From a virus: DNA of 16,533 bases. The stretch lies in UHGV virus genome UHGV-1601610; one strand, 5' to 3'. The translations under genes and the position numbers were made by a program. Positions 3,150 through 8,456 of the stretch are shown piece after piece; the stretch's first letter is position 1, and each line of letters opens with the position of its first letter. A model generated the notes under the pieces. It was given only the letters and a program-made list of their open reading frames with translations, was not told the DNA's origin and did no database searches.

Positions 3150-3479
3150 CTATGCCACGACCTGTTCAAAATCTGCCGTTATGGTTACCCACAGCGCCCC
3201 CACGCTTGCCGACCATTTACGACAAACCACCCTGATCGGTTTCCAGTCATAAGGTGGCGTCCACTGAAATGCACGGACGCCACCGTGCCGTTCCAGAAAG
3301 GCTTTTAAAGATGGGTGGTCACATTTACGAACACGTATCGTCACGCTGTAAGTCGACAACTGGTTATTCAGTCCCGCCGCACGACGCTGTTCATAACCAT
3401 CGCCCAGCTTCACTGTCACCACTTTCGGCTCTGATACCACATTCATATCCGGGCGCACTTTCCAGTGAAACGTCTCCAT
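3150..3479 (-). CDS. M: Minor tail protein M (lambda gpM-like)
   Basis: 109 aa, METFHWKVRPDMNVVSEPKVV...FEQVVA, similar to lambda gpM as I recall it (MKTFRWKVKPGMDVASVP...). Start ATG overlaps the H stop (TAATG) at 3477-3481. Confidence 0.85.
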   Translation of the reverse strand: METFHWKVRPDMNVVSEPKVVTVKLGDGYEQRRAAGLNNQLSTYSVTIRVRKCDHPSLKAFLERHGGVRAFQWTPPYDWKPIRVVCRKWSASVGALWVTITADFEQVVA

Positions 3480-6400
3480 TACCGATATGCTCCACTTAAC
3501 CGACCACCATCACGGGCCTGCTGTTGCATAAAGTCCGCTGCCGCTTTTTTCCCGAGGTCATAAACCGCCTTCAGGGCAGCCGGACCTATCTGCCCGTTCG
3601 TGCCATCGTTATTGATCTCGATGTTGTACTGCGGGGAAAACATCGCCATACCTGACCCCCCAATATCCGCCACAACCCCCAGCTTACCGTCAGCACCACG
3701 ACGCAATGGCAGAATGGCTTCAGGTCCCGCTTCCCCCATCACACCCGCGCCTTTTGCAAAAGCAAAAAACGTCGGACGGTTAACCACCGTGCCACTGTAA
3801 CGACTCAAATCAGCAGACTGATAAATCCCCCCATTGGCATTCAGGGAAAGGCTGCTGAGATCAAATCCCAGTACACTGCCAATCCCTTTTATCGATTTCA
3901 TCATGGTTGCCTGCGCCAGGATTTTCGCCATATCTGACAGCACAGAAGAGGTGAAGGATTTGAAATTGAGTTTGCCGGTAGTGACAAAAGTTGCCAGGCC
4001 ATTTCCCATGTTGCTGAAGGCTGACGAGAACACCTGTTCTGCTGTTTCTGCCGTATTATCTGCATCCACGGTAAAATCCTGAAATGCACGCAGGACTCCG
4101 TTTTTCCAGTTACCCTGCACAACTTCAAGCTGTTGCCAGTAACGGCGATTCTCATTCAGTTGTCGGTTCAGGCTCTCCGTCAGCGCCTGCTCGGCCTTTC
4201 TGTAGTCATCCGTGTTATATGTCCCTTTCTGCTCACTATCCCGCCTCAACTGCTCCAGCTGTTGCTGGTATTTCTGGCGAAGACTCAGTTGTACCTGATA
4301 TCGCTGTCGCTGCTGATCACCCATACCCACCGTGGCGATATCCAGGTCATGTTGCTGACGCTGAGCGCGCTCTTCTTCAGCCAGTTGACTGGTCAGCTGA
4401 ATTGTTTTTTTCTTCAGCTCGTTGAGTGCCGTCTGTTTCTGAAGCTCCTGCTGTTTTACATCCAGCAGCGTCAGTGCCTGAATCAGTTCATCTTTACGGG
4501 CCAGCACACTCTTTTCATCTGCCGTCAGTTTTTTCCCGTCCAGGTCGCTGATGCGCTGCTGCAGAGCCAGAAGCTGTTTATGCGCTTCTGTCATCCTTTC
4601 CGTGGCAATGCCTGCTGACTGTCTGGCAGCAGCAATCTGTCCTTCCACCTGTGCCTGTTGCTGACTGTACTGCAGCAATAACCGGGTGGCCTCATCATTA
4701 CGGGTTTCGCGTGTTTTTTTCTTACCGGATGCCAGGGCTTTCTCGTAACGTTCATTTTCACGTTGTATCGCCGCATCCCTGACAGCCTGATCGGCGTACT
4801 GCATGGCATTAATACGCGCAATTTCACGCTGATGTCGTGCTGCTTCCGTTTCATTCATCCGGTTCAGTGCAGCATTTTCAGCATTACGGCGTTTCTGTTG
4901 CTCCTGATAATTCCGCTCTGCCTGCTCTTTTGCATCCTGCAAATCCTTCTGGCGTTTTTTCTCCTGAAGATCGTTAAGACGCTGCTGATCGTATTCAACC
5001 TGAGAAGATGATGCCGTCCAGGGGAGTCTTTTCGCCCGCGACACTTTCTCCTGTAAAGCGGCAATCTGTTCATCCAGCGAGTCTTCACGACCAATATTCA
5101 TGGCCGCATCCCAGAAACGACTCCACAAATCAGACAGATACTTCAGCGTACTGCCAAGCGCATTGAGGTTATTATCAATATCCGCAGTACGCCGACCGGT
5201 TTCCTCTGCCAGTGCAGACATGGCTATCCGTGCAGCATCACTGGACCGCCCCTGCTCCCCAAGGACGCGTATCTGCTCAAGCTGAGTGGCAGTAAGAAAA
5301 TGCAGCTCATTGTCCAGAGCCTTCGCGGCATTTACAGGATCATCCTTCAGCCGCTTAAACTGATTTATGGTATCGCTGACCGACTGGCCAACCGATCGCT
5401 CCATCTGTGCGGCAACTCTCGCCACCATACCGATATCGTTTCCACGAAATGCACCACTCCCCACCACCTGAGCCAGCGCACCGGCTGCAGCATGTTGCGT
5501 GATACCATTCCCGGAAATAGCACGACTGAGCGTCCACAGCTGCCCGGCAGTGACTCCGGCATAATGCCCCGTCAGCGACAACTGGCGGTTAAATTCTTCC
5601 CCCTCCTTCTGACCGTCATACCAGGCTTTACCCAGACCATAGACGGCCGCGGCAATACCGCCAATAACCCCGCCAAGCATCATGCCTTTCGGTGACATCA
5701 GTGTGTCTATCCATCCGGCACGGTTAGCCAGCGTTATCCCGGATCCCCTCAGCGCCCCTAAATTGCCGCGGGCCAGTTCACCTATCAGAACGCCTATCTC
5801 CTGGCGGGCTGCTGCACTTTTCAGACCCAGCGAATGCGTGGCTTTTCCTGCCTGCTCCATTTTGCGGATATACACTTCTGCAGCACTGCTTACCCCCAGC
5901 TGGGCTGCCTTAGCACGAAGCAACTCAGAAGATGAAAGATTCAGGCGGGTTGCCTGCTCTTTAAGCTGACGGATAAACGCCACTTTCTGTCGGGTAGCCT
6001 CTTCCTCAGCCTGTGTAAGAACACGGGTTTTCGCAGTAACCTCAGAAATCAGCGCCAGATAATCCTGCTGACCAATCCCGCCACTGTTTCTGGCCTGTCG
6101 GATCTGCTGCTGAATACGCTGTAATTCCTGCAGCCCCGCACTGGCCTGTTTCACACTGTCAATCTGACGATAAAACGCAGCAGCCGCTTTATCCTGAGCC
6201 TCCGCCAGAGCCATGGCCTGCGCCTGTTCCTCGCGCATTTTCTGGCTCAGTGCCTCCATGCGCTGGCGGGTTTTCTCCACCTCGCGGGCCATGCGTTCAT
6301 GAGCCTGTGCGTTCTTCTCCACCGTCTGCGCATGGACGGATGCGGCTGTTGCAGCCGAAGAAGCTGCCTGCGTTGTCTGCCGGGCGGCCTGAGTCTGACG

Positions 6401-6544
6401 CTCCATAAAACGCTGCATACGGGCAGAAGACCGTTCTGCATCGCTGGCTGCACCATTCAGAAGGTTTTTGATACGGGGAATTTCATTTTTAAACTCTGCC
6501 GCATCAATCCCCAAATCAATGACCAGGTTGGCTATCTGGTCCAT
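3479..6544 (-). CDS. H: Tail tape measure protein (lambda gpH-like)
   Basis: ORF-track ORF 3479-6574; start moved to ATG 6542-6544, which has GGAGGTG 6 nt upstream and gives N-terminus MDQIANLVIDLGIDAAEF (compare lambda gpH MAEPVGDLVVDLSLDAARF). About 1021 aa with a long Q/E/A/R-rich coiled-coil core and conserved C-terminus ...NNDGTNGQIGPAALKAVYD. Confidence 0.9.
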   Translation of the reverse strand: MDQIANLVIDLGIDAAEFKNEIPRIKNLLNGAASDAERSSARMQRFMERQTQAARQTTQAASSAATAASVHAQTVEKNAQAHERMAREVEKTRQRMEALSQKMREEQAQAMALAEAQDKAAAAFYRQIDSVKQASAGLQELQRIQQQIRQARNSGGIGQQDYLALISEVTAKTRVLTQAEEEATRQKVAFIRQLKEQATRLNLSSSELLRAKAAQLGVSSAAEVYIRKMEQAGKATHSLGLKSAAARQEIGVLIGELARGNLGALRGSGITLANRAGWIDTLMSPKGMMLGGVIGGIAAAVYGLGKAWYDGQKEGEEFNRQLSLTGHYAGVTAGQLWTLSRAISGNGITQHAAAGALAQVVGSGAFRGNDIGMVARVAAQMERSVGQSVSDTINQFKRLKDDPVNAAKALDNELHFLTATQLEQIRVLGEQGRSSDAARIAMSALAEETGRRTADIDNNLNALGSTLKYLSDLWSRFWDAAMNIGREDSLDEQIAALQEKVSRAKRLPWTASSSQVEYDQQRLNDLQEKKRQKDLQDAKEQAERNYQEQQKRRNAENAALNRMNETEAARHQREIARINAMQYADQAVRDAAIQRENERYEKALASGKKKTRETRNDEATRLLLQYSQQQAQVEGQIAAARQSAGIATERMTEAHKQLLALQQRISDLDGKKLTADEKSVLARKDELIQALTLLDVKQQELQKQTALNELKKKTIQLTSQLAEEERAQRQQHDLDIATVGMGDQQRQRYQVQLSLRQKYQQQLEQLRRDSEQKGTYNTDDYRKAEQALTESLNRQLNENRRYWQQLEVVQGNWKNGVLRAFQDFTVDADNTAETAEQVFSSAFSNMGNGLATFVTTGKLNFKSFTSSVLSDMAKILAQATMMKSIKGIGSVLGFDLSSLSLNANGGIYQSADLSRYSGTVVNRPTFFAFAKGAGVMGEAGPEAILPLRRGADGKLGVVADIGGSGMAMFSPQYNIEINNDGTNGQIGPAALKAVYDLGKKAAADFMQQQARDGGRLSGAYR

Positions 6545-7243
6545 AACGCACACCTCCGGAAATACCTTCCCCAAGATGCATCAGTTCTTCGTCCGTTCGC
6601 TCCGGTATCCCGTTCTCTTCCGGTAAAAGGCTGAAATCAGCCACCGCAGCATCACTGCTGCCGGACACCATTCTCACGATCAATGCCTTCAGCGAGGCAA
6701 ACTGCGCATCCATCCACACATCACTGAAGCTCTGCATCCGGAAATAATCGCCCCACTCACCAAGCTCAGTGGCCGACATTTCCGACAGCATCCGCCGCCA
6801 GTCTGCCCGCCGGAACTCCCGGGCAAGCCGCATGACAAACTGCATTTCCCGCGTCAGGACTTTTCCGGCGTCAGCGCCTCATGCTCATCATCCACGGCAT
6901 TATCAATGGCCCCCATACCGCTCAGCGACAGAACCATCTCCGCCCCCGCACCCAGGGCATCATACGACCATGTTGTAATAACGGATGCGCAAAGCGTCTC
7001 TACATCCTTAGACTGATCCGCATTCCACAGTGAGCGGGAAACCAGCCAGGCATTGATATCCATCCCCATCCGCAGAAAAGCAATCTGTCGTTCAGCCTCC
7101 GGCAGTTCTCCCTCCCCGGCATCAAACTTTGCCGTTCGCTGCTGAACAAACGTCAGATATTCAATTCTCTGCAGCCCGGACAGCTCACTGAGCACCACGG
7201 ACTGTTTTTCATAATTAAACGTGTCCTGTTTCAGAAACATCAT
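6516..7243 (-). CDS. T: Tail assembly chaperone G-T fusion made by programmed -1 frameshift near the 3' end of G (lambda gpGT-like)
   Basis: The T ORF (6516-6845) lies in the -1 frame relative to G. Upstream of the T ATG the -1 frame is open only back to about 6878 (a TGA blocks it), so the shift must occur within ~22 nt before the G stop. That window contains GGAAAAG (minus strand, about 6860-6866). Conserved G-T arrangement of long-tailed phages. Confidence 0.6.
6854..7243 (-). CDS. G: Tail assembly chaperone G (lambda gpG-like)
   Basis: ORF-track ORF 6854-7282; start moved to ATGATG at 7238-7243 with GGTGGAG SD, because the longer 5' extension would translate through the terminator-like hairpin. 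N-terminus MMFLKQDTF... compares with lambda gpG MFLKTESFEH... Confidence 0.8.
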   Translation of the reverse strand: MMFLKQDTFNYEKQSVVLSELSGLQRIEYLTFVQQRTAKFDAGEGELPEAERQIAFLRMGMDINAWLVSRSLWNADQSKDVETLCASVITTWSYDALGAGAEMVLSLSGMGAIDNAVDDEHEALTPEKS

Positions 7244-7256
7244 GTTCTCCACCTGC

Positions 7257-7280
7257 AAAAAAGCCCCGAATAACCGGGGC
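7257..7280 (-). terminator. Intrinsic-terminator-like hairpin between V and G (GCCCCG guuauu CGGGGC + UUUUUU)
   Basis: Minus-strand read: 6-bp GC stem, 6-nt loop, then a run of 6 U, immediately followed by the SD and ATG of G. Probably a partial terminator, since the downstream tail genes must still be transcribed. Confidence 0.5.
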
Positions 7281-7300
7281 AAATGATGAGTATCGTCCTG

Positions 7301-8044
7301 TTAACCTGCTGCGCTGACAGTCACCGCAGTCACAGCCACAAAATTCCCGTCAGCGGTCATGCCCACAATGCTGACACTGCCCTGCTTCACGCCTTTTACC
7401 GTGGCCACAAGTCCGTTCAGGGTAACCGTGGCAGTCTGTGGATCTGACGAATGCACACTGATCGCTTTGTCACTGGCTCCGTCAGGTTTTACTGTAAAGG
7501 TCAGCGTGGTGGTTGCTCCCACTTTTACACTGGCAGACGCCGGTGATACTGTCAGCCCGGTAACGCTCACGGTTTCAGTGCCTTCCTCTGCCAGATACGG
7601 ACGCCCCACACCGCTGATTTTCACAGTGCGGGTCATCACGTCTTTTGAGGCAATGGTTTTACCCAGTGAGCTCAGCCAGCCACGGAAAACATCAACAGTG
7701 CCGTTGGGATATTTGATACGAAACGCGCAGACTTCACCGGAGTCGAACAACTGAACCAGTTTTTTCTGCCCGCTGTCACCCGGACGCCAGGCCAGCGTCG
7801 CCGAAGTATCACCAACGGATTTCTGCCCCTGGGTTGTCGTTTTCCAGTCTGCATCTTCATCATCGAGATAAGTGTCATCTTCTGCATCAGCGGTCATTTC
7901 GCCAGGTTGCAGATCCTTCACCATCGCAAGACGCAGCCAGTCAGTGTCCGACAAAGGGTTCGCAAACGCATCGCCGTTGCCGGTATACATCCAGAACGTC
8001 GTCCCCGCACCTTTCGTCTTTGCCAGTGGATTTGGTGTGGTCAT
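7301..8044 (-). CDS. V: Major tail protein V (lambda gpV-like, C-terminal Ig-like domain)
   Basis: ORF-track ORF 7301-8119; start moved to ATG 8042-8044 with AAGGAGGTG SD, giving MTTPNPLAKTKGAGTTFWMYTGNGDAFANPLSDTDW... (lambda gpV: [20 protein letters not shown]...). 247 aa. C-terminal ~90 aa is T/V/S-rich, consistent with a Big_2-type domain. Confidence 0.9.
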   Translation of the reverse strand: MTTPNPLAKTKGAGTTFWMYTGNGDAFANPLSDTDWLRLAMVKDLQPGEMTADAEDDTYLDDEDADWKTTTQGQKSVGDTSATLAWRPGDSGQKKLVQLFDSGEVCAFRIKYPNGTVDVFRGWLSSLGKTIASKDVMTRTVKISGVGRPYLAEEGTETVSVTGLTVSPASASVKVGATTTLTFTVKPDGASDKAISVHSSDPQTATVTLNGLVATVKGVKQGSVSIVGMTADGNFVAVTAVTVSAAG

Positions 8045-8054
8045 TACCACCTCC

Positions 8055-8456
8055 TTAATTCGTGTACGTGATCTGGTACGTGATTTCCGCCATCGCCCAG
8101 GTGGCCATCTCATTATCACGTTGATAGTTAAAACCGAGTGGGATCAGGGTGTCGATGAGTCCGGAAAGTGCCGGTATATCATTCAGGGCAGGGAAAATGG
8201 TGCTCTCCATCCACATATCCAGCTCTGAATCCGGTGCCTGTGCCCGGATGAAGACGGCAATATGCAGAACAGCCTGCCAGTCATCTTCATCCGTCATTTT
8301 TCCGGTGTACTGAGCATCACTCAGCCACACCGCCACGGCAGGCAGTTCCTGCGCATCAATAAATGCCGGAAGCCCGTCAAAAAACGTGGCGCTGTCTCCA
8401 CACTGTTCCCGAAGGCGTGCCAGTACGGCCTGGCGGATTTGTGTATGTCGGTTCAT
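8055..8456 (-). CDS. U: Tail terminator protein U (lambda gpU-like)
   Basis: ORF-track ORF 8055-8468; start placed at the ATG overlapping the Z stop (ATGA at 8453-8456), giving MNRHTQIRQAVLARL...ATFFDG...PAVAVWLSDAQYTG...; lambda gpU motifs as I recall them. The alternative start at 8468 has GAGG only 2 nt upstream. Confidence 0.8.
   Translation of the reverse strand: MNRHTQIRQAVLARLREQCGDSATFFDGLPAFIDAQELPAVAVWLSDAQYTGKMTDEDDWQAVLHIAVFIRAQAPDSELDMWMESTIFPALNDIPALSGLIDTLIPLGFNYQRDNEMATWAMAEITYQITYTN

What the first reader, a model, noticed from the sequence alone, without database searches (positions are those of the whole stretch)
6856..6878. Programmed -1 frameshift window for the G-T tail chaperone fusion, with slippery heptamer GGAAAAG
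The T reading frame is -1 relative to G and is open upstream of its first ATG only as far back as ~6878. Ribosomes must therefore shift within the last ~22 nt of G. That window contains GGAAAAG (minus strand, ~6860-6866), only 2 codons before the G stop. In the G frame this is G GAA AAG: the A-site Lys tRNA can re-pair AAG to AAA and the P-site Glu tRNA GAA to GGA with a G:U pair. The motif differs from the canonical lambda G GGA AAG.
Basis: partly seen in the sequence, partly recalled or inferred. Interest (0 to 1): 0.5.

Follow-up and report, generated by a model that had tools for sequence, protein, structure and literature searches.

The report
Variant slippery site for phage G-T frameshift
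This is the expected ribosomal frameshift site that fuses the two tail-assembly chaperone genes of a lambda-like prophage. It uses a one-base variant (GGAAAAG) of lambda's slippery sequence that other phage records already annotate, so it is real but ordinary.

Summary
On the minus strand, G (PF06894) ends ACG CCG GAA AAG TCC TGA, with the stop at 6856-6854. The T frame (PF06223) is -1 relative to G and is closed by a TGA at 6881-6879. The 22-nt overlap contains one shift-prone motif, G_GAA_AAG (6866-6860).

Comparative evidence supports the interpretation. The heptamer sits exactly where lambda's G_GGA_AAG sits, 12 T-frame codons before the conserved LAREF/M motif. All 55 distinct G-T junctions from 274 loci carry GGAAAAG, GGGAAAG, AAAAAAG or GGCAAAA at that position. 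T-frame protein conservation starts right after the heptamer, and several relatives have no T-frame ATG before the LAREF motif.

GGAAAAG is already annotated as the G-T -1 slippery sequence in phi80 (FN582354.1) and phage LLS. Records of this window's own lineage, and the RefSeq E. coli record examined, list G and T as separate genes.

One possibly new detail: relatives whose G stops 0-1 codon after the heptamer nearly always carry an SD-like GAGG about 10 nt upstream, the spacing used in a published dnaX-mimic mRNA. No conserved downstream structure was found.

Verdict: a new member of a known kind, of low interest. No experiment here shows the fusion protein.

The parts
6854..7243 (-). Gene G, tail assembly chaperone, 129 aa from ATG 7243 (128 aa from ATG 7240), including the stop TGA at 6856-6854.
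   Evidence: Pfam PF06894, E 3.8e-40. Homologues begin MFLK.
6860..6866 (-). Shift site G_GAA_AAG: P-site codon GAA, A-site codon AAG. It is positionally homologous to lambda's G_GGA_AAG.
   Evidence: Invariant in all 44 distinct GGAAAAG-type junctions. Annotated as the slippery sequence in phi80 and LLS.
6857..6878 (-). The 22-nt G/T overlap, the only place where a -1 shift can join G to T.
   Evidence: In some relatives the overlap is only 16 nt and still contains the heptamer.
6879..6881 (-). TGA in the T frame, which sets the 5' limit of the shift window.
6516..6860 (-). T-frame portion of the predicted GT fusion: GTC at 6860-6858 through the stop at 6518-6516, 114 codons. Base 6860 is read twice. 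Predicted GT = 128 + 114 = 242 aa.
   Evidence: Pfam PF06223, E 5.1e-15. T-frame conservation begins right after the heptamer.
6843..6845 (-). ATG used by database annotators as the start of a separate T gene, 8 nt after the G stop. It is not conserved in relatives.
   Evidence: annotation. (absent in the Salmonella, Gifsy-2, L093 and L094 lineages).
6877..6880 (-). SD-like GAGG, followed by a 10-nt spacer (6876-6867) before the heptamer. Candidate 5' stimulator; inferred, not shown.
   Evidence: A dnaX-mimic mRNA with AGGGAG + 10 nt + AAAAAAG is listed.
7263..7280 (-). Intrinsic-terminator-like hairpin plus T-run between V and G (context: may lower G/T/H transcription relative to V).
   Evidence: Annotated as a rho-independent terminator in mEp460.
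3479..6544 (-). Tape measure gene H (context). Its likely ATG at 6544 overlaps the end of T by 29 nt.

Best explanation
This is a programmed -1 ribosomal frameshift that makes the G-T tail assembly chaperone fusion of an mEp460/cdtI-type lambdoid prophage.

**Proposed mechanism.** Most ribosomes translate G (129 aa) and terminate at TGA 6856-6854. A minority slip back one base when GAA (Glu) is in the P site and AAG (Lys) is in the A site of G_GAA_AAG (6866-6860). The single E. coli tRNA-Lys (anticodon UUU) re-pairs cognately from AAG to AAA. tRNA-Glu either re-pairs imperfectly with GGA through a central G·U, or does not need to re-pair. Decoding then continues GUC CUG ACG..., giving ...TPEK-VLTREMQFVMRLAREF..., a 242-aa GT protein.

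By analogy with lambda, the G part would bind the tape measure protein H and the T part would recruit the tail tube protein V. An SD-like GAGG 10 nt upstream (6880-6877) may pair with 16S rRNA and boost the weak heptamer, as the upstream SD-like sequence does in dnaX.

**Shown here:** the frames, the protein homologies, the positional homology and the conservation.

**Inferred:** that shifting actually occurs, its efficiency, whether one or two tRNAs slip, and any role for the SD-like element.
For: - **Gene order and domains.** V, G, T and H in order, with the expected Pfam domains.
- **Frame and overlap.** T is in the -1 frame with a 22-nt overlap. A_AAG is the only phased slippery motif in that overlap.
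- **Alignment with lambda.** The sequence following the heptamer aligns with lambda's GT junction without gaps.
- **Family-wide position.** The site 12 T-frame codons before LAREF/M holds GGAAAAG (44), GGGAAAG (6), GGCAAAA (3) or AAAAAAG (2) in 55 distinct junctions.
- **Codon-level conservation.** In the 21 E. coli and Salmonella G proteins aligned, plus Gifsy-2, the tail ends P-E-K-x-stop after a hypervariable stretch. In every GGAAAAG lineage examined the codons are always NNG GAA AAG, although GAG and AAA are freely used elsewhere in G.
- **No independent T start.** The Salmonella, Gifsy-2, Symbiopectobacterium and Ewingella lineages lack the window's T-frame ATG, yet T-frame protein conservation begins at the heptamer.
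- **Prior annotation.** GGAAAAG is annotated as the -1 slippery sequence with a joined gpG-T CDS in phi80 and LLS. The Gifsy-2 record calls T 'part of G+G' frameshift hybrid protein'.
- **SD-like element.** 13 of 15 short-tail clusters have AGG starting at -16 to -13, against a 5.6% background per window and 0 of 8 long-tail clusters. The Glu codon at that position is GAG in 10 of 10 cases, never GAA. Mean predicted anti-SD duplex energy is -6.3 against -1.4 kcal/mol.
Against: - No protein or reporter evidence exists for this lineage.
- G GAA AAG was chosen as an 'unfavourable' control in a reconstituted E. coli system and gave mainly 0-frame product.
- A_AAG tetramers without a stimulator are at about background in vivo: 0.147% against 0.112%.
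- No significant or conserved downstream structure was found: z = -1.05; consensus -4.7 kcal/mol with no covariation.
- The window's GAGG is a weak SD. It scores -5.6 kcal/mol, which only falls in the top 16% of windows in its own gene.
- phi80-type GGAAAAG sites lack the element altogether.
- The position window for the SD test was chosen after looking at the data, and the lineages share ancestry.
- An ATG 8 nt after the G stop could allow some independent T synthesis in this sub-lineage.
Confidence: 0.85

Rival explanations
1. T is made as a free 109-aa protein by termination-reinitiation at ATG 6845, 8 nt after the G stop, as every database record of this lineage annotates. On this reading no frameshift is needed.
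For: - The ATG exists and is conserved in the E. coli sub-lineages.
- mEp460, Tritos and a RefSeq E. coli record (E2865) annotate T from this ATG.
Against: - The Salmonella, Gifsy-2, L093 and L094 relatives lack this ATG; some have none before LAREF and others have one only just before it.
- T-frame protein conservation (VLxxExxF) begins upstream of the ATG, directly at the heptamer.
- The only SD-like bases (GGGAA) lie 0-2 nt from the ATG, which is too close (general knowledge of RBS spacing).
- In lambda, T acts only as part of GT, and the G part tethers it to H.
- Reinitiation could still coexist with frameshifting as a minor route.
Confidence: 0.1
2. The shift is a single-tRNA event. Only tRNA-Lys slips from AAG to AAA on the A_AAG tetramer (the NNA_AAG class). 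tRNA-Glu does not re-pair with GGA. The heptamer description is therefore misleading, although the protein product is identical.
For: - GAA to GGA is a second-position mismatch, judged noncognate.
- Productive -1 shifting occurs at G_CGA_AAG in IS1222 and A_CGA_AAG in Bacillus.
- The Ewingella-type relatives use G_GCA_AAA followed by a stop, where tRNA-Ala cannot re-pair.
Against: - Heptamer base 1 is always G, although it is the wobble base of three different codons (CCG, GCG, GTG). A tetramer-only model does not require this. However, there are few independent lineages.
- Tetramers alone are barely shifty without a strong stimulator.
Confidence: 0.4
3. The conserved GAGGC upstream of the heptamer is not an SD-like stimulator. 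It reflects amino-acid conservation (Glu-Ala) or the 5' arm of a small hairpin (GGCG-CTGA-CGCC) abutting the heptamer.
For: - A Glu occupies the homologous codon in both clades.
- The window sequence can form a 4-bp hairpin of -4.8 kcal/mol.
Against: - The Glu codon is GAG in 10 of 10 short-tail clusters, against GAA 124: GAG 95 elsewhere in G.
- Lineages without Glu at that codon (Q-V, Q-A, V-G) still carry AGG.
- The predicted hairpins differ in register, are weak (0 to -5.8 kcal/mol) and are absent in Gifsy-2.
Confidence: 0.3
4. There is no recoding. The motif is a chance occurrence, and G and T are unrelated adjacent genes or decaying prophage remnants.
For: - GGAAAAG is not rare in the window: 6 copies against 2.1 expected.
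- Some relatives are clearly decayed (L006-L008).
Against: - The motif is conserved, in the same position and phase, in 55 of 55 distinct junctions.
- The same junction occurs in inducible, plaque-forming phages such as mEp460, Ayreon, Tritos and cdtI.
- Only this copy has the ORF geometry expected of a frameshift site.
Confidence: 0.03

Closest known systems
Bacteriophage lambda G/GT -1 programmed frameshift at G_GGA_AAG (Levin, Hendrix & Casjens 1993; Xu, Hendrix & Duda 2004, 2013, 2014, as cited in Atkins 2016)
   Same: - Homologous G (PF06894) and T (PF06223) genes between V and H.
- T in the -1 frame.
- Shift site at the homologous codon position.
- A-site AAG to AAA re-pairing by tRNA-Lys.
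- No evident downstream structure in this window.
   Different: - Heptamer base 3 is A rather than G, so the P-site codon is GAA (Glu) rather than GGA (Gly). Re-pairing would need a central G·U.
- The G stop is 1 codon after the heptamer rather than 5.
- An SD-like GAGG lies 10 nt upstream, which lambda lacks.
- G is only about 31% identical to lambda G.
phi80 gpG-T (FN582354.1) and phage LLS (PQ299149.1), which annotate GGAAAAG as the -1 slippery sequence
   Same: The identical heptamer G_GAA_AAG at the homologous position, annotated with a joined G-T CDS.
   Different: - phi80 and LLS have the lambda-like long tail, with 5 codons to the stop.
- They have no SD-like AGG at -16 to -13.
- Their G proteins are only 33-35% identical to the window's.
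- No experimental paper on the phi80 site was found in the held library.
Gifsy-2 (NC_010393) STM1039 / STM1041.1n
   Same: - Same clade: G is 56% identical.
- Same ACG CCG GAA AAG TCC TGA ending and same upstream GAGG + 10 nt.
- The record describes T as part of a G+G' frameshift hybrid.
   Different: - There is no T-frame ATG near the junction.
- The record gives no slippery-site coordinates.
E. coli dnaX -1 frameshift cassette (A_AAA_AAG with a 5' SD-like sequence and a 3' stem-loop)
   Same: - A-site AAG decoded by the single tRNA-Lys.
- SD-like element with a 10-nt spacer. The dnaX-mimic mRNA reads AGGGAG + 10 nt + AAAAAAG.
- A stop close to the site.
   Different: - No 3' stem-loop.
- The P-site codon cannot re-pair cognately.
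- Expected efficiency is a few per cent or less, against about 50% for dnaX.
- Here the frameshift extends the protein; in dnaX it truncates it.
NNA_AAG / A_AAG single-tRNA -1 shift sites (IS1222 G_CGA_AAG; Bacillus cdd A_CGA_AAG)
   Same: An A_AAG tetramer preceded by a codon that cannot re-pair cognately in the -1 frame.
   Different: These studied cases depend on strong 3' structures (up to 5.6% with the IS3 pseudoknot). No such structure is detectable here.

Membership tests
Lambda-type G/GT tail assembly chaperone frameshift | Two consecutive ORFs lie between the major tail protein gene and the tape measure gene. | tested here: met
   V (PF16461 + Big_2), G, T and H (PF06791, PF09718) are in order on the minus strand.
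Lambda-type G/GT tail assembly chaperone frameshift | The upstream ORF is homologous to gpG and the downstream ORF to gpT. | tested here: met
   PF06894, E 3.8e-40; PF06223, E 5.1e-15.
Lambda-type G/GT tail assembly chaperone frameshift | The downstream ORF is in the -1 frame, overlaps the end of G, and has no conserved start of its own. | tested here: met
   -1 frame with a 22-nt overlap. The T-frame ATG is absent in several relatives.
Lambda-type G/GT tail assembly chaperone frameshift | A shift-prone sequence lies inside the overlap at the conserved position and allows at least A-site re-pairing in the -1 frame. | tested here: met
   G_GAA_AAG lies 12 T-frame codons before LAREF, as do lambda's GGGAAAG and the heptamers of all 55 distinct junctions.
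Lambda-type G/GT tail assembly chaperone frameshift | The heptamer is a canonical X_XXY_YYZ. This is typical of the family but not obligatory: phi80 and LLS are annotated with GGAAAAG. | tested here: not met
   GGAAAAG has G-G-A in the first three positions. The same non-canonical heptamer is accepted in phi80 and LLS annotations.
Lambda-type G/GT tail assembly chaperone frameshift | A GT fusion protein is made at a few per cent of G and is required for tail assembly. | not testable with these tools
   This needs mass spectrometry, western blotting or genetics. Lambda's roughly 30:1 ratio is cited.
dnaX-type SD-stimulated -1 frameshift cassette | An SD-like sequence lies 10-14 nt 5' of the shift site. 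| tested here: inconclusive
   GAGG at 6880-6877 with a 10-nt spacer. It is conserved in 13 of 15 short-tail clusters but weak in this window (-5.6 kcal/mol). Its function was not tested.
dnaX-type SD-stimulated -1 frameshift cassette | A stimulatory stem-loop lies 3' of the shift site. | tested here: not met
   Fold z-score -1.05. Consensus fold -4.7 kcal/mol, starting about 43 nt downstream, with no covariation. Rfam gave only chance hits far below each family's gathering score.
A_AAG / NNA_AAG single-tRNA slippage sites | A 0-frame AAG is preceded by A, so that tRNA-Lys can re-pair to AAA. | tested here: met
   GAA AAG in the G frame.
A_AAG / NNA_AAG single-tRNA slippage sites | The P-site tRNA does not take part in re-pairing. 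| not testable with these tools
   GAA to GGA would need a central G·U. The conserved G at heptamer base 1 hints that the P-site tRNA does take part, but independent lineages are few.

The most novel reading that the evidence does not exclude
A sub-family of lambdoid G-T cassettes may compensate for a 'crippled' heptamer with a dnaX-like upstream SD:anti-SD interaction at a fixed 10-nt spacing. This sub-family includes the window, cdtI, Gifsy-2, Salmonella prophages, and Symbiopectobacterium and Ewingella phages. Its G stop lies 0-1 codon after the site. Its heptamers (G_GAA_AAG or G_GCA_AAA) are ones whose P-site tRNA cannot re-pair cognately. If so, this would be a compact SD-plus-tetramer frameshift signal without any 3' structure. 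It is widespread: the junction occurs in 1845 of 5426 complete E. coli genomes.
Probability: 0.35. Interest if true: 0.4.

Novelty: new member of a known kind. Interest (0 to 1): 0.22.

Why it matters
**Annotation.** The junction is present in about a third of complete E. coli genomes (1845 of 5426). The phage records of this lineage that were inspected, the one RefSeq record inspected in detail and the other RefSeq hits listed give G and T as separate genes. If that holds generally, the functional GT chaperone is missing from a very large number of annotations. Heptamer-only frameshift finders that require XXXYYYZ will miss it.

**Mechanism.** Nature conserves a heptamer that biochemists use as a low-slippage control. 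That makes this a convenient natural test case for two questions. How much P-site re-pairing does bacterial -1 frameshifting need? Can a short upstream SD-like element substitute for it?

Neither point changes the established picture of tail assembly.

Tried and rejected
- **Downstream stimulatory structure.** A single-sequence fold of 6866-6740 gave z = -1.05. A consensus fold of 10 lineages gave only a weak hairpin about 43 nt downstream, with no covariation.
- **Rfam.** A scan of 6650-7000 returned only chance snoRNA hits far below each family's gathering score.
- **Upstream mini-hairpin** (GGCG-CTGA-CGCC) as the reason for GAGGC conservation. The predicted hairpins are weak, differ in register between lineages, and are absent in Gifsy-2.
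- **Transcriptional slippage.** A run of four A is far shorter than the roughly 9 A/T runs documented for slippage. Not pursued.
- **Other GGAAAAG copies in the window.** None has the frameshift ORF geometry.
- **SD-like element as universal compensation for GGAAAAG.** Rejected, because phi80-type GGAAAAG sites lack it.
- **G+T single-ORF proteins P0025 and P0039.** These are internal-deletion fusions and say nothing about the slip site.
- **Searches that added little.** IMG/VR scans seeded with the Symbiopectobacterium G found nothing and with the Superficieibacter G found only 2 loci.
- **Papers not held in the library.** Xu 2004 (Mol Cell) and Licznar 2003 (EMBO J) could not be read. Their content is cited only through the Atkins 2016 review.
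- **Literature searches for GGAAAAG as a phage slip site.** These found no experimental paper.

Full report
**1. What is in the sequence**

On the minus strand the window carries a lambda-like tail module.
- V: 7301-8119, with lambda tail-tube and Big_2 domains.
- G: 6854-7243, PF06894, E 3.8e-40.
- A -1 frame ORF: 6516-6878, PF06223 (protein T), E 5.1e-15.
- The tape measure gene H.

G ends GAG GCG CTG ACG CCG GAA AAG TCC TGA, with the stop at 6856-6854. The T frame reads TGA (6881-6879) GGC GCT GAC GCC GGA AAA GTC CTG ACG CGG GAA ATG.... A_AAG is the only phased Z_ZZN motif in the overlap.

The 7-mer is not rare in the window: 6 copies against 2.1 expected. Only this copy has a 145-codon ORF ending within 3 codons together with a 116-codon -1 ORF continuing past it.

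**2. Where the window comes from**

The G-T region (6400-7400) is 97-99.8% identical to phages mEp460, PhiR55_1, Tritos, cdtI, Ayreon and others. A 301-nt stretch around the junction occurs in 1845 of 5426 complete E. coli genomes. Four records were inspected in detail: mEp460, Ayreon, Tritos, and RefSeq E. coli E2865. All annotate G and T as separate genes with no slippage. The other RefSeq hits listed also show separate G and T products.

**3. Positional homology with lambda**

Lambda reads GCG GGA AAG TGT TCG ACG GTG AGC TGA. After a -1 shift, lambda gives GK|VFDGELSFALKLAREMGRPDW. The window gives EK|VLTREMQFVMRLAREFRRADW. The two align with no gaps, so GGAAAAG occupies the very position of lambda's GGGAAAG and differs at one base.

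**4. Comparative test**

I collected 274 analysable loci from several sources: IMG/VR, one genome per species, phage records, and contigs encoding diverged G proteins. They give 55 distinct junction sequences in 23 G-protein clusters at 85% identity.

The site 12 T-frame codons upstream of the conserved LA[RKQ]E[FML] motif always holds one of four heptamers.
- GGAAAAG: 44 junctions.
- GGGAAAG: 6 junctions.
- GGCAAAA: 3 junctions.
- AAAAAAG: 2 junctions.

All four keep an A_AAR A-site codon.

In the 22 aligned relatives of the window's clade (E. coli, Salmonella, Gifsy-2), the G protein ends P-E-K-x-stop after about 25 hypervariable, length-variable residues. At the DNA level, every GGAAAAG lineage examined reads NNG GAA AAG. 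It is never GAG or AAA, although elsewhere in these G genes GAA:GAG is 124:95 and AAA:AAG is 69:30.

The overlap shrinks to 16 nt in some Salmonella prophages and still contains the heptamer. T-frame translations are unconserved and interrupted by stops upstream of the heptamer. From the heptamer onward they are conserved (V-L/F-x-x-E-x-x-F-...-LAREF). The window's T-frame ATG is missing in the Salmonella, Gifsy-2, Symbiopectobacterium and Ewingella relatives; some have no ATG before LAREF and others only one just before it.

This is the signature of translation entering the T frame at the heptamer. It argues against independent initiation at ATG 6845.

**5. Prior knowledge**

- GGAAAAG is already annotated as 'slippery sequence for -1 translational frameshift', with a joined gpG-T CDS, in phi80 FN582354.1 (feature 10194-10200).
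- Phage LLS annotates it as 'minus-one programmed translational frameshift site GGAAAAG'.
- The same heptamer is present in mEp043, in a Ravinvirus from Enterobacter, and in others.
- The Gifsy-2 record, from the window's own clade, calls T 'part of G+G' frameshift hybrid protein'.

What is missing is its annotation in this very common lineage.

**6. Mechanism and its uncertainty**

E. coli has a single tRNA-Lys, and its pairing with AAA is stronger than with AAG. Hence A_AAG is intrinsically shifty (Atkins 2016). The P-site step is the weak point.
- Peng et al. 2019 chose AUG GAA AAG as a sequence 'unfavorable for slippage', because tRNA-Glu would face a second-position mismatch on GGA. They obtained mainly 0-frame product. 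G GGA AAG was slippery under limiting EF-G or with EF-G mutants.
- In vivo, Z_ZZN tetramers without a stimulator are at about background (0.147% against 0.112%). A_AAG reaches 5.6% only with the IS3 pseudoknot.
- I found no downstream stimulator: fold z = -1.05, no conserved or covarying helix near the site, and no Rfam match above chance.

So one of three things holds. A low GT level may suffice. tRNA-Glu may tolerate G·U re-pairing; the invariant G at heptamer base 1 across CCG, GCG and GTG codons hints at this. Or another stimulator may exist.

**7. A candidate stimulator (inference)**

The family splits into two clades.
- A 'long-tail' clade (lambda, phi80, Stx phages), with 5 codons between the heptamer and the stop.
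- A 'short-tail' clade, which includes the window, with 0-1 codon.

In the short-tail clade, 13 of 15 clusters carry AGG starting at -16 to -13 from the heptamer. Most often it is GAGG followed by a 10-nt spacer. One further cluster has AGGAG with a 14-nt spacer, and one has nothing. In the long-tail clade the count is 0 of 8. The background is 5.6% per equivalent window.

Several observations point to nucleotide-level rather than amino-acid-level selection.
- The Glu codon involved is GAG in 10 of 10 clusters.
- Lineages with other residues at that position (Q-V, Q-A, V-G) still present AGG.
- Predicted duplex energy with the 16S 3' tail averages -6.3 against -1.4 kcal/mol.
- A 10-nt spacer matches the dnaX-mimic mRNA: AGGGAG + 10 nt + AAAAAAG. 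5' SD stimulators are established for dnaX and many IS elements.

In the window the element is GAGG at 6880-6877.

There are clear caveats.
- The position window was defined after inspection. Seven lineages fetched afterwards gave 5 hits, 1 near miss and 1 miss.
- The lineages are related.
- The window's own GAGG is weak.
- Three short-tail Symbiopectobacterium/Serratia loci with canonical GGGAAAG lack the element. That is consistent with compensation.
- phi80-type GGAAAAG sites lack it too, which is not consistent with compensation.

**8. Verdict**

The site is a new member of a known kind: a lambdoid G-T -1 frameshift using the phi80-type GGAAAAG heptamer. Its practical value is in correcting annotation. 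The only possibly new biology is the conserved SD-like element in the short-tail clade.

Noticed in passing
window 7254-7280 (-): An intrinsic-terminator-like hairpin, GCCCCGGTTATTCGGGGC followed by TTTTTT, lies between V and G. It is annotated as a rho-independent terminator in mEp460. It may set the V:(G, T, H) transcript ratio.
   Followed up: partly
window 7238-7254 (-): G has tandem ATG ATG starts (7243 and 7240). Homologues begin MFLK, and the SD AGGTGGAG is 6 nt from the second ATG. The second ATG is therefore probably the real start, whereas some records use the first.
   Followed up: partly
window 6516-6544 (-): The T-frame stop (6518-6516) lies 29 nt inside H, whose likely start is ATG 6544 preceded by GGAGGTG. 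The mechanical ORF list instead gives an upstream TTG at 6574.
   Followed up: partly
window 6844-6850 (-): GGGAAAT lies immediately after the G stop and resembles lambda's GGGAAAG. It is beyond the stop, in the wrong phase, and conserved only in the E. coli sub-lineages. It is probably just the Arg-Glu-Met codons of T.
   Followed up: partly
L094, L112-L115, L251-L254 (Ewingella-type); L271, L276 (CP-1639, Stx1a phages): Two further heptamers occupy the homologous G-T position. One is G_GCA_AAA, followed directly by TAG, where the P-site tRNA-Ala cannot re-pair. The other is the dnaX-type A_AAA_AAG.
   Followed up: partly
L270, L273, L274, L277, L278 (phi80, LLS, mEp043, Ravinvirus types): These GGAAAAG sites have neither the upstream SD-like AGG nor an obvious other stimulator. 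How they reach a useful frameshift level is unexplained.
   Followed up: no
L006-L008; proteins P0025, P0039, P0001: Some relatives have a disrupted G (premature stops). Others have internal deletions or duplications that fuse G to T in one frame. These are probably decaying prophages or assembly artefacts.
   Followed up: partly
window 15758-15764 (-): A second in-phase G_GAA_AAG lies inside the 179-aa ORF 15518-16057, upstream of the ORF 13410-15509 (both presumed terminase genes by position only; not checked). The -1 frame closes after 10 codons, so it is probably incidental.
   Followed up: partly
window 7304-7560 (-): The major tail protein V carries a C-terminal Big_2 Ig-like domain (residues 186-263), as lambda gpV does.
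   Followed up: no
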